From Octopus vulgaris (taxonomy: Eukaryota), in assembly GCA_951406725.2 (NCBI GenBank), contig OX597818.1, positions 90,024,001 through 90,088,000 on the forward strand: a DNA stretch of 64,000 nt, written 5' to 3'. Made by a program: the position numbers. This document shows, piece after piece, positions 29,260 to 30,256 of this stretch; the stretch's first letter is position 1; each line of letters opens with the position of its first letter.

Positions 29260-29354
<95 letters not shown>

Positions 29355-30256
29355 TCAATATAGGGTGGCAAAAAAAAATTTTGTAGAATTCTTTGCCACC
29401 AGCGGCCTAGTAGGAAAAAATTAAAATAGTCATAGACCATTTTTAAGTTCAACATCAACAATAAAGGAACGGCCATAATAGGCCATTCACCCACTAGAAA
29501 TAACAGCCAAAGCTTCAACCGCAAATAAAAGTTAATTCAGTAAACCAGGAGAAAATTTAAAAAATTTAAAAAACAGTGGGTGAATGGCCTATTATGGCCG
29601 TTCCTTTATTGTTGATGTTGAACTTAAAAATGGTCTATGACTATTTTAATTTTTTCCTACTAGGCCGCTGGTGGCAAAAGAATTCTACAAAATTTTTTTG
29701 CCACCCTATATTGATTAATTATGAATTTTCTGGTTAATTCCGTAATGGAATCGACGGCTTATATTTATTTGCTGCCGATAAATTTGGCGCGAGTGCGACG
29801 ATTTGAAAATTTTAGGTCAGATATAAACTTGGCAACGTCGGAAATGCCTCGTGAAAATATCTGTTCCGTCTTGGGCTATTTCTTACTGAAGAATCTGAGG
29901 GCCTGTGGAAGATTGGCTTGATTTAATTTAATCAGGTTAGTTTACCATTAATCAGCAGATGAAACGGTATATCGTATAAGAAATTACAGGGTAAATGTTT
30001 TTAAAATTTTCTCCTGGTTTACTGAATTAACTTTTATTTGCGGTTGAAGCTTTGGCTGTTATTTCTAGTGGGTGAATGGCCTATTATGGCCGTTCCTTTA
30101 TTGTTGATATATATATATATATATAAATCGCTATAGAGTCCGCTCGAACGGACAGCCATGTTAAAGTGGCTACGAATATTATTTAGAAAGATTTTACAAC
30201 TAGCATTTTTGCTTATACATACATAAATACATACATACATACATATATGCATAAAT

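What the first reader, a model, noticed from the sequence alone, without database searches (positions are those of the whole stretch)
29347..30108. Insertion that records a circular or tandem template: 492-nt unit, terminal redundancy and an inverted arm crossing the junction
Seen: the unit starting at 29575 restarts at 30067 (42-nt redundancy). The upstream inverted arm 29347-29567 reads continuously from the unit end into the unit start and well beyond the redundancy. A strong HHR with an 8-bp stem I lies at 29878-29984. Inference: reverse transcription ran more than once around a circular or multimeric RNA, with the 5' inversion typical of PLE integration.
Basis: partly seen in the sequence, partly recalled or inferred. 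Interest (0 to 1): 0.82.

Follow-up and report, generated by a model that had tools for sequence, protein, structure and literature searches.

The report
Small ribozyme retroelement inserted Penelope-style
This is a 762-base non-coding mobile element carrying a hammerhead ribozyme, inserted into a TA repeat in the head-to-head, slightly-more-than-one-copy layout typical of Penelope-like retrotransposons; it is a clear example of a kind described since 2020.

Summary
A 492-nt unit (29575-30066) restarts for 42 nt (30067-30108). An upstream inverted arm (29347-29568) reads unit 418-492 and then 1-148 without a break. The whole 762 nt sits inside a (TA)n microsatellite.

A type I hammerhead motif (29878-29984, cleavage after 29976) fits a structural descriptor that gave no hit in 200 and 300 shuffles of the window. 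Rfam's hammerhead models do not detect it.

The window holds four more hammerhead-bearing elements. Each has its sense 3' end at or near a (TA)n tract. One has the same inverted-arm layout and one is a 2.5-unit tandem.

The layout (inverted copy with an outer "tail", short direct terminal repeat, AT-rich target) matches published Penelope-like element (PLE) insertions. The PLE enzyme is reported to cut and extend both target strands and to start at two internal RNA sites.

Best reading: a non-autonomous, PLE-mobilised "non-LTR retrozyme" in an octopod genome, copied from a template longer than one unit. Whether that template was a circle or a tandem transcript cannot be decided here. No other genomic copies and no RNA data could be examined.

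It is a new member of a known kind, of moderate interest.

The parts
29320..29346 (.). Left target flank: (TA)n, preceded by (TC)n at 29260-29318
   Evidence: Sequence; TRF row 29260-29318
29347..29568 (-). Inverted 5' arm. Read on the minus strand it is the sense of unit 418-492 followed by 1-148. Its outer end at 29347 is unit 148, 106 nt beyond the direct copy's 3' end (a 'tail').
   Evidence: E 4e-69 and 2e-29; alignment (no substitutions, 4 indels)
29347..29399 (-). Inverted copy of the distal 3' module (hairpin plus CCTATATTGATTAAT), abutting (TA)n
   Evidence: fold (-16.2 kcal/mol); motif hit 29354-29364 on the minus strand
29569..29574 (.). Six filler bases joining the inverted and direct copies
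   Evidence: coordinates; sequence
29575..29616 (+). Upstream partial copy (42 nt), the pseudo-LTR-like direct repeat. It contains the proximal 3' module (hairpin plus CCTTTATTGTTGAT).
   Evidence: 42/42 identical to 30067-30108
29575..30066 (+). One 492-nt non-coding unit, 35% G+C
   Evidence: longest stop-to-stop frame 68 aa on a trimer; no frame is open around the circle
29670..29722 (+). Distal 3' module inside the direct copy: hairpin 29670-29705, then 17 nt ending at unit 148
   Evidence: fold (-19.5 kcal/mol); (hairpin scored as a miRNA-like stem-loop)
29878..29984 (+). Type I hammerhead motif. Helix I 29878-85/29977-84; core CUGAAGA 29886-92; helix II 29893-97/29956-60 with a 58-nt hairpin insert; GAAA 29961-64; helix III 29964-75. 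Predicted cleavage between 29976 and 29977 (unit 402|403).
   Evidence: hammerhead fold -29.6 versus MFE -31.4 kcal/mol; enforcing it in the circle costs 2.5 kcal/mol. Not detected by Rfam.
30067..30108 (+). Terminal 42-nt restart of the unit; the element's sense 3' end lies at 30108
30109..30126 (.). Right target flank: (TA)n
491..1064 (+). Context element E4: 500-nt unit plus an exact 74-nt restart (1.15 units); hammerhead 771-830; 3' end abuts (TA)n 1063-1140
32001..33089 (-). Context element E2: 434-nt unit x 2.5 in tandem, with (TA)n on both sides. Each full unit has a hammerhead-like motif on the minus strand (core at 32299 and 32733) with a palindromic helix III and a weak helix I.
   Evidence: TRF. 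It failed all three descriptors.
41559..41924 (-). Context element E6: single truncated copy with a CUGAUGA hammerhead (41863-41802). Its 3' end abuts (TA)n 41472-41558; upstream is a SINE fragment. The 5' limit is approximate.
44350..44822 (-). Context element E3: inverted arm (44721-44560) facing a direct copy (44513-44352), 97% complementary. Hammerhead at 44523-44463. The inverted copy runs about 100 nt beyond the direct copy's 3' end to (TA)n.
   Evidence: (I3)

Best explanation
The 762-nt block is one insertion of a non-coding, hammerhead-bearing retroelement with a 492-nt unit. It belongs with the metazoan 'non-LTR retrozymes', that is, non-autonomous derivatives of Penelope-like elements (PLEs). 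It was placed into a (TA)n microsatellite by a PLE enzyme supplied in trans.

Inferred mechanism:
1. The PLE protein cuts both strands of the AT-rich target, and each 3'-OH primes reverse transcription.
2. The bottom-strand cDNA starts just 3' of a hairpin module at unit 42. It copies 534 nt (1.09 units) through an uncleaved or religated hammerhead site and stops at unit 1.
3. The top-strand cDNA starts at a second, similar module 106 nt further 3' (unit 148). It copies 223 nt back across the unit junction to unit 418.
4. The two cDNA 3' ends are joined, leaving 6 filler bases.

What is shown and what is inferred:
- Shown: the repeat geometry, the target, the ribozyme motif and the parallels in the window.
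- Inferred from papers: two-strand priming and internal initiation.
- Undecided: whether the more-than-one-unit template was a circular RNA or a tandem transcript.
For: - Geometry and its statistics.
- (TA)n on both sides.
- The unit is non-coding, and its sense-strand circle folds well below shuffles (-135.0 versus -105.6 +/- 5.6 kcal/mol, z -5.25).
- Hammerhead motif: 0 hits in 200 shuffles and 0 in 300. Five independent motifs in the window keep the core while all three helices differ by paired changes.
- All five hammerhead elements lie with the sense 3' end at or near a (TA)n tract; E3's is separated from it by (TATC)n and (TC)n.
- E3 repeats the pattern of an inverted copy that ends about 100 nt further 3' than the direct copy.
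- E4 repeats the pattern of a unit plus a short restart, 74 of 500 nt.
- A hairpin followed by a shared short motif precedes the outer ends of E1 (both ends) and E4. A related hairpin precedes one end of E3 and the end of E6. The motif CCTNTATTGNT occurs 7 times, all in E1 or E4, against 0.94 expected. The pattern was derived from these sites.
- Literature, insertion layout: PLE inserts are an inverted pLTR with a tail, then a direct pLTR, the body and a second direct pLTR (PMC3846280 passages). Partial tandems, inverted 5'-truncated copies and a (TA)n bias are reported, and octopus is listed as a PLE host (PMC8557442 passages).
- Literature, enzyme: the purified PLE protein cleaves and extends both strands, starts at two internal sites near a stem-loop, prefers AT-rich DNA and uses unprocessed multi-copy RNA (PMC11167929 main text).
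- Literature, class: retrozymes are described as PLE-dependent tandem hammerhead repeats (PMC7229834; bioRxiv 10.64898/2026.07.22.740005).
Against: - No Rfam hammerhead model matches any of the motifs, even at E<=10 on short slices.
- Only one copy of this family is in the window, so mobility of the family is not shown.
- No PLE reading frame (GIY-YIG plus RT) is in the window. The 68 ORFs scanned gave only LINE-type domains, so no partner is identified.
- The 'tail' here is 100-106 nt, against 30-40 bp in published PLEs.
- Craig et al. report the (TA)n bias for Naiads, which lack canonical hammerheads.
- E3's direct 3' end does not show the hairpin-plus-motif module.
- A target-site duplication cannot be read in a microsatellite.
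Confidence: 0.75

Rival explanations
1. Sub-hypothesis A (circle). The template was a covalently closed 492-nt RNA made by hammerhead cleavage and ligation. The reverse transcriptase went once around and stopped after displacing only 42 nt of its own product, which gives the short redundancy.
For: - E1 and E4 both stop just past one turn: 1.09 and 1.15 units.
- The overlapping parts show no substitutions: 42/42, 74/74, and the arm against the direct copy.
- The direct copy crosses the cleavage site intact.
- The circle folds stably and the hammerhead fold is accessible, costing 2.5 kcal/mol.
- A circRNA template giving tandem cDNA is the published retrozyme model (PMC7229834 Discussion).
Against: - There are only two cases.
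- E2 is 2.5 units long.
- 'Partial copy plus full copy' is the ordinary PLE pseudo-LTR layout, which is explained without circles.
- For the one PLE tested in vitro, unprocessed linear RNA was the main substrate and hammerhead mutants inserted equally well (PMC11167929).
- No RNA data were available here.
Confidence: 0.3
2. Sub-hypothesis B (tandem transcript). The template was a linear read-through transcript of a genomic dimer or array of the unit, not cleaved at the hammerhead, as proposed for autonomous PLEs.
For: - PMC11167929 proposes multi-copy mRNA as the template and finds hammerhead cleavage dispensable.
- Both cDNAs of E3 and the direct cDNA of E1 cross uncleaved hammerhead sites.
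- A 2.5-unit tandem of another family lies 2 kb away.
Against: - No tandem master copy of this family is in the window.
- It gives no reason why E1 and E4 both end within 42-74 nt past one unit.
- The direct and inverted cDNAs overlap by 148 nt, which needs two RNA molecules or strand displacement on a single linear template.
Confidence: 0.42
3. DNA-level origin. The block is a remnant of a 492-bp satellite array, or a local duplication and inversion caused by replication or repair at a fragile microsatellite. It would not be a retrotransposition event.
For: The region is dense in microsatellites and palindromic repeats. No target-site duplication can be read.
Against: - Both outer ends fall at similar hairpin-plus-motif modules directly against (TA)n.
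- Unrelated families (E3, E4, E6, E2) show the same orientation rule and target.
- The arm is not a mirror image about the junction: unit 418 faces unit 1.
Confidence: 0.08
4. Assembly artefact. A fold-back chimeric long read produced a false inverted duplication.
For: The only differences between the arm and the direct copy are small indels, three of four in homopolymer runs. That is the error type of long reads.
Against: - A fold-back read gives a true palindrome about one axis. Here the arm starts at unit 418 and meets unit 1, and it extends 106 nt beyond the other end of the direct copy.
- The layout recurs in E3 with different sequence.
- The window holds no N.
Confidence: 0.04
5. A TA-targeting DNA transposon (MITE or foldback element) with long subterminal inverted repeats.
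For: It lies in TA sequence. The two termini share a short imperfect inverted similarity, because the proximal and distal modules resemble each other.
Against: - The long inverted partners are not terminal on both sides: the left terminus pairs with internal 29617-29722.
- E4 has the same 3' module and hammerhead but no inverted arm.
- The direct terminal redundancy and the strand-specific ribozyme orientation relative to (TA)n are not transposon features.
Confidence: 0.03

Closest known systems
Metazoan non-LTR retrozymes (Cervera & de la Pena 2020, PMC7229834; Li, Clavereau & Pollet 2026 preprint, 10.64898/2026.07.22.740005)
   Same: A short, AT-rich, non-coding unit carries a type I hammerhead. 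The arrangement is head-to-tail and longer than one unit. The RNA is predicted to be highly paired. A PLE is the presumed mobiliser. At 492 nt the unit is within the 51-972 bp range reported by the preprint.
   Different: Only 1.09 units here, not a long array. It carries an inverted 5' arm, a word that does not occur in the 2020 paper's text (0 occurrences of 'inverted'). Helix II carries a 58-nt hairpin insert, and helix III is a stable 4-5 bp. Circular RNA and copy number were not tested. The host is an octopod; a search for 'octopus' with 'hammerhead ribozyme' found both terms only in PMC8557442.
Canonical insertion architecture of endonuclease-positive Penelope-like elements (Arkhipova et al. 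2013, PMC3846280; Craig et al. 2021, PMC8557442; Frangieh et al. 2024, PMC11167929)
   Same: An inverted 5'-truncated copy lies next to the direct copy. There is a direct terminal repeat (pseudo-LTR), an extension ('tail') at the outer end of one copy, an AT-rich or (TA)n target, a hammerhead in the non-coding part, and two RT start sites near a stem-loop.
   Different: There is no RT/GIY-YIG reading frame. The unit is 492 nt rather than about 3 kb. The tail is 106 nt rather than 30-40 bp. The direct repeat is only 42 nt, and the hammerhead lies outside it.
Non-autonomous Chlamys PLE derivatives such as MRC1 of Chlamydomonas (Craig et al. 2021, passage)
   Same: Non-coding elements that form pseudo-LTRs and multicopy head-to-tail insertions, using a PLE in trans.
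   Different: Those lack canonical hammerheads and target other repeats, (CA)n and (C)n. The host is an alga.
L1 5' inversion by twin priming (named in the listing of PMC2912911; mechanism recalled)
   Same: The 5' part is inverted relative to the 3' part through priming from both target strands.
   Different: There is no poly(A). The inverted and direct parts overlap by 148 nt instead of being adjacent. The inverted copy starts 3' of the direct copy's start, not 5' of it.

Membership tests
Hammerhead ribozyme, type I | Conserved core C3-U4-G5-A6-N7-G8-A9, G12-A13-A14, an A15.1-U16.1 pair, and H17 not G | tested here: met
   CUGAAGA at 29886-92, GAA at 29961-63, A29964-U29975 pair, H17 = A29976. 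The consensus itself is recalled and agrees with the numbering quoted in PMC4209133.
Hammerhead ribozyme, type I | Three helices around the core, with helix I open and helices II and III closed | tested here: met
   Helix I 8 bp, helix II 5 bp plus hairpin insert, helix III 4-5 bp. No such motif in 200 and 300 shuffles. Helices differ by paired changes among five motifs.
Hammerhead ribozyme, type I | Match to a curated covariance model (the Rfam hammerhead families) | tested here: not met
   No hammerhead family was listed at gathering score or at E<=10 (also for the other motifs). The long helix II inserts may explain this, but that is inference.
Hammerhead ribozyme, type I | Self-cleavage at the predicted site | not testable with these tools
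   Needs in vitro transcription of 29860-30000 or mapping of RNA ends.
Metazoan non-LTR retrozyme | Short non-coding unit of low G+C carrying a type I hammerhead, without LTRs | tested here: met
   492 nt, 35% G+C, longest frame 68 aa. Repeats as. PBS and PPT were not searched.
Metazoan non-LTR retrozyme | Head-to-tail tandem copies | tested here: inconclusive
   Only 1.09 units here. Neighbouring families show 1.15 and 2.5 units.
Metazoan non-LTR retrozyme | Many dispersed genomic copies | tested here: inconclusive
   No further copies in the 64-kb window. No eukaryotic genome collection was available.
Metazoan non-LTR retrozyme | Expressed as unit-length linear and circular RNA | not testable with these tools
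   No transcript data. Only the fold of a hypothetical circle was computed.
PLE-type insertion (autonomous or PLE-mobilised) | Direct terminal repeat formed by a partial upstream copy (pseudo-LTR) | tested here: met
   29575-29616 equals 30067-30108, 42/42.
PLE-type insertion (autonomous or PLE-mobilised) | Inverted 5'-truncated copy directly upstream, with an extension at one outer end | tested here: met
   Arm 29347-29568; its outer end lies 106 nt beyond the direct 3' end. This is longer than the published 30-40 bp.
PLE-type insertion (autonomous or PLE-mobilised) | AT-rich or microsatellite target | tested here: met
   (TA)n on both sides. The other four hammerhead elements also lie at or near (TA)n tracts.
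PLE (autonomous element) | Single reading frame with a telomerase-like RT and a GIY-YIG endonuclease | tested here: not met
   The unit is non-coding. No GIY-YIG in 68 window ORFs. The RT fragments present are LINE-type with AP endonuclease relatives.
PLE-mobilised non-autonomous element | 3' end similar to that of an autonomous PLE in the same genome | not testable with these tools
   There is no PLE in the window and no access to the rest of the genome.
TA-targeting MITE or foldback DNA transposon | Matching terminal inverted repeats at both ends | tested here: not met
   The left terminus pairs with internal 29617-29722. The right terminus pairs with 29454-29564.

The most novel reading that the evidence does not exclude
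The short terminal redundancies (42 of 492 nt here, 74 of 500 nt in E4) are the mark of one lap around a hammerhead-made circular RNA. The lap ended when the PLE reverse transcriptase ran into its own primer and displaced only a few dozen bases. The inverted arm would come from the second protomer starting at a second initiation module about 100 nt away. If so, such loci would be direct genomic records that PLE machinery uses circular RNAs as templates. The pair of modules would then define a 100-nt 'tail' variant of the PLE initiation signal.
Probability: 0.3. Interest if true: 0.6.

Novelty: new member of a known kind. Interest (0 to 1): 0.36.

Why it matters
Retrozymes in animals have been linked to PLEs by co-occurrence, by shared hammerheads and, recently, by sequence similarity to pseudo-LTRs. 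A single clean insertion that shows the full PLE signature on a 492-nt ribozyme element is a structural link of a different kind. That signature is an inverted copy with a tail, a direct terminal repeat and a (TA)n target.

The five elements in 64 kb suggest that octopod genomes are a rich place to test three questions by counting ends and lengths of copies:
- where PLE reverse transcription starts;
- whether both target strands are used in vivo;
- whether circles or tandem transcripts are the templates.

It does not change the current picture of these elements.

Tried and rejected
- Rfam scans gave no hammerhead or other ribozyme family. I ran the whole window at gathering score and five slices at E<=5 or E<=10. 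The listed miRNA, snoRNA and leader matches are hairpin or low-complexity look-alikes far below their gathering scores, and I set them aside.
- The whole-window repeat finder was swamped by microsatellites. A dust-masked self-blastn replaced it.
- The search for a PLE partner in the window found none. Pfam on 8 long ORFs and on 60 of the 90 higher-entropy ORFs of 90 aa or more, out of 167 in all, showed only LINE domains. The 30 ORFs left out were overlapping frames over microsatellites or over the LINE at 45.6-50.6 kb; three of those had been scanned. Fragments shorter than 90 aa would be missed.
- A run-off reading of the inverted arm is weak. In E1 its inner end is 15 nt 3' of the hammerhead cleavage site. 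In E3 both copies cross the cleavage site. I therefore do not claim that the arm ended at a ribozyme-made 5' end.
- Self-primed snap-back of one cDNA was considered and rejected. The inverted copies of E1 and E3 run 100-106 nt of element sequence beyond the direct copy's start, which a copy of the same cDNA could not contain.
- The second motif search found only one unrelated site and was dropped.
- Not done: the genome-contig scan, because that collection holds bacteria and archaea only. No eukaryotic genome or read set was available, so circular permutation of ends among copies and junction-spanning RNA stayed unchecked.
- Supplementary files were not opened. Two may bear on the claims: Fig. 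S9 of PMC7229834 (the integration model) and file S1 of PMC8557442 (the octopus PLE families).

Full report
**What is there.**
- The window is AT-rich (about 32-57% G+C), full of microsatellites and contains no N.
- At 29347-30108 a 762-nt block interrupts a (TA)n tract.
- blastn of 29575-30066 against the window and the repeat finder show a 492-nt unit, an exact 42-nt restart (30067-30108, E 2e-16) and an upstream inverted arm. The arm has two hits: 29495-29347 = unit 1-148 (E 4e-69) and 29564-29496 = unit 424-492 (E 2e-29).
- A gapped alignment makes this one continuous arm, 29568 down to 29347 = unit 418..492,1..148. It has no substitutions and four small indels. Six filler bases separate it from the direct copy.
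- All other blastn hits of the unit in the window have E >= 0.089, so this is the only copy of the family here.

**The ribozyme.**
- A descriptor for type I hammerheads (core CUGANGA, helix II, GAAA, helix III, U-H, helix I; consensus recalled) finds 29878-29984. Helix I is 8 bp, helix II is 5 bp closing a 58-nt hairpin, helix III is 4-5 bp, and cleavage falls after A29976.
- The same descriptor found nothing in 200 dinucleotide-preserving shuffles of the whole window.
- A version tolerating a mismatch at the first helix II pair found 4 sites in the window and none in 300 shuffles.
- A version tolerating one helix I mismatch found the same 4 sites, and 1 of 300 shuffles had a hit.
- The isolated segment folds into the hammerhead shape at -29.6 kcal/mol against an MFE of -31.4.
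- Against this, Rfam lists no hammerhead family at gathering score over the window or at E<=10 on slices of 851 and 127 nt. The same holds for the other motifs.
- I take the motif as a real hammerhead by structure and comparison. Its activity is untested.

**The unit as RNA.**
- It is non-coding. On a trimer the longest stop-to-stop frame is 68 aa, and no frame stays open around the circle.
- Folded as a circle, the sense strand reaches -135.0 kcal/mol against -105.6 +/- 5.6 for 100 shuffles (z -5.25). The antisense strand gives z -5.03.
- Enforcing the hammerhead in the circle costs 2.5 kcal/mol.

**Context in the window.** Four more hammerhead-type elements of other sequence families are present.
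- E4 (491-1064, plus strand) is a 500-nt unit with an exact 74-nt restart and a hammerhead at 771-830. Its 3' end abuts (TA)n 1063-1140.
- E3 (44822 to 44350, minus strand) has an inverted arm facing a direct copy (162 nt, 97%, I3) and a hammerhead at 44523-44463. About 100 nt of extra element sequence lie at the outer end of the inverted copy, next to (TA)n. Its hammerhead region is about 70% identical to E4's (E 2e-6).
- E6 (about 41924 to 41559, minus strand) is a single truncated copy with a CUGAUGA hammerhead. Its 3' end abuts (TA)n.
- E2 (32001-33089) is a 434-nt unit repeated 2.5 times, with (TA)n on both sides. Each full unit has a hammerhead-like motif on the minus strand, with a palindromic helix III but a helix I broken by a mismatch. 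It failed my descriptors and was found by inspecting core matches.
- Across the five motifs the core is constant, while all three helices differ in sequence and still pair.
- In all five elements the sense 3' end lies at or near a (TA)n tract. E3's is separated from it by (TATC)n and (TC)n.

**Ends.**
- The outer ends do not look random. Both ends of E1 and the end of E4 are preceded by a stable hairpin followed by a shared short motif. The inverted end of E3 and the end of E6 share a related hairpin.
- The pattern CCTNTATTGNT occurs 7 times in the window, all in E1 or E4 (three independent sites plus their repeats), against 0.94 expected. The pattern was derived from these sites, so this shows only that it is absent elsewhere.
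- E3's direct end lacks the module.
- In E1 the two modules lie 106 nt apart. The direct copy ends at the proximal one (132 nt after the cleavage site). The inverted copy ends at the distal one (238 nt after it).
- E3 shows 119 and about 220 nt; E4 239; E6 248; E2 197 (computed and the coordinates above).

**Comparison with what is published.**
- PLE insertions are described as partial tandems forming pseudo-LTRs. They often have an inverted 5'-truncated copy at the 5' end and a 30-40-bp tail at one end (PMC8557442 passages; PMC3846280 passages).
- A bias for (TA)n is reported for Naiads and suggested for Neptune. Octopus species are listed among Naiad hosts, and Naiads lack canonical hammerheads.
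- A purified PLE protein cleaves and extends both target strands and prefers AT-rich DNA. It starts reverse transcription at two internal RNA sites near a stem-loop, and the stretch between the two sites corresponds to the tail. It uses unprocessed multi-copy RNA, and hammerhead mutants insert equally well (PMC11167929 main text).
- Animal tandem repeats with type I hammerheads are named non-LTR retrozymes. They give circular RNAs and are proposed to be copied from circles into tandem cDNA by PLEs (PMC7229834, Results part 1 and Discussion).
- A 2026 preprint ties retrozymes to PLE pseudo-LTRs by similarity and reports consensus lengths of 51-972 bp.
- Non-autonomous PLE derivatives with pseudo-LTRs and head-to-tail insertions are also known in algae.
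- E1 is this architecture in miniature.

**Mechanism.**
- Shown: the geometry, the target, the motif and the recurrence in the window.
- Inferred: both nicked target strands primed cDNA synthesis on retrozyme RNA, at the proximal module for the bottom strand and at the distal module for the top strand. The two cDNAs were then joined.
- The direct cDNA (534 nt) exceeds one unit and passes an intact cleavage site, so its template held more than one unit or was closed.
- The two cDNAs overlap by 148 nt. This argues for two RNA molecules or strand displacement rather than classical twin priming on one linear RNA.
- A snap-back copy of a single cDNA is excluded, because the inverted copy carries 106 nt that the direct copy lacks at that end.
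- Circle or tandem transcript cannot be told apart. The near-unit lengths of E1 and E4 and the lack of substitutions in the overlaps lean towards a circle. E2's 2.5 units and the in vitro data on unprocessed RNA lean the other way.

**Host and partner.**
- Pfam scans of 68 ORFs found only LINE domains.
- The decayed RT at 53620-54324 has AP-endonuclease LINE relatives. Its best named relative is from Argonauta hians at 62% identity, so the window is probably from an octopod.
- Active Penelope families are reported in Octopus vulgaris (PMC13282606 passages).
- No PLE lies in the window.

**Limits.**
- No eukaryotic genome, read set or transcriptome was available.
- Supplementary files were not seen.
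- A search for octopus together with hammerhead ribozyme found both terms only in PMC8557442. I saw no description of cephalopod retrozymes, but this rests on that one search.

**Verdict.** The class is already described, so this is a new member of a known kind.

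Noticed in passing
window 491-1064: Element E4: a 500-nt unit with an exact 74-nt restart and a hammerhead at 771-830 (A.C at the first helix II pair). It ends against (TA)n 1063-1140. The 200 nt upstream (291-490) belong to another repeat that also lies next to a (TA)n at 42243-42377 (77% identity).
   Followed up: partly
window 32001-33089: A 434-nt unit repeated 2.5 times between two (TA)n tracts. The copy nearest 32001 carries a 38-nt internal duplication (55-nt period at 32058-32172). A hammerhead-like motif lies on the minus strand, with a palindromic helix III and a weak helix I.
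   Followed up: partly
window 44350-44822 and 41559-41924: Two more hammerhead elements on the minus strand. One has inverted and direct copies plus a ~100-nt tail. The other is a truncated single copy abutting a SINE fragment.
   Followed up: partly
window 41047-41441: A 394-nt near-perfect palindrome (85% self-complementary) between (AC)n and (TA)n, with a related fragment at 55359-55479. No hammerhead was found. It may be a foldback element or MITE, or another inverted insertion.
   Followed up: no
window 3547-4140, 5239-5450, 16868-17233: Further self-inverted blocks. The first is centred on (TTA)n/(AAT)n. Their nature was not examined.
   Followed up: no
window 45585-50574: An apparently intact LINE. 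The ORF at 47212-50574 (1120 aa) has AP endonuclease, RVT_1 and zf-RVT domains, in a G+C-rich stretch (up to 57%). An upstream 530-aa ORF has no Pfam match. A decayed LINE RT lies at 53164-54759 (minus strand).
   Followed up: partly
window 8217-8671, 9608-10041, 19280-19534, 21212-21484, 23865-24212, 25165-25506, 54981-55244 and others: Many copies of a SINE-like repeat with a conserved 3' part followed by microsatellite. Fragments flank several of the elements above.
   Followed up: no
window 36500-39900: A strongly strand-skewed stretch (GC skew down to -0.52) made of (TACA)n, (ACT)n and (CCA)n-type repeats. It gives long spurious open frames.
   Followed up: no
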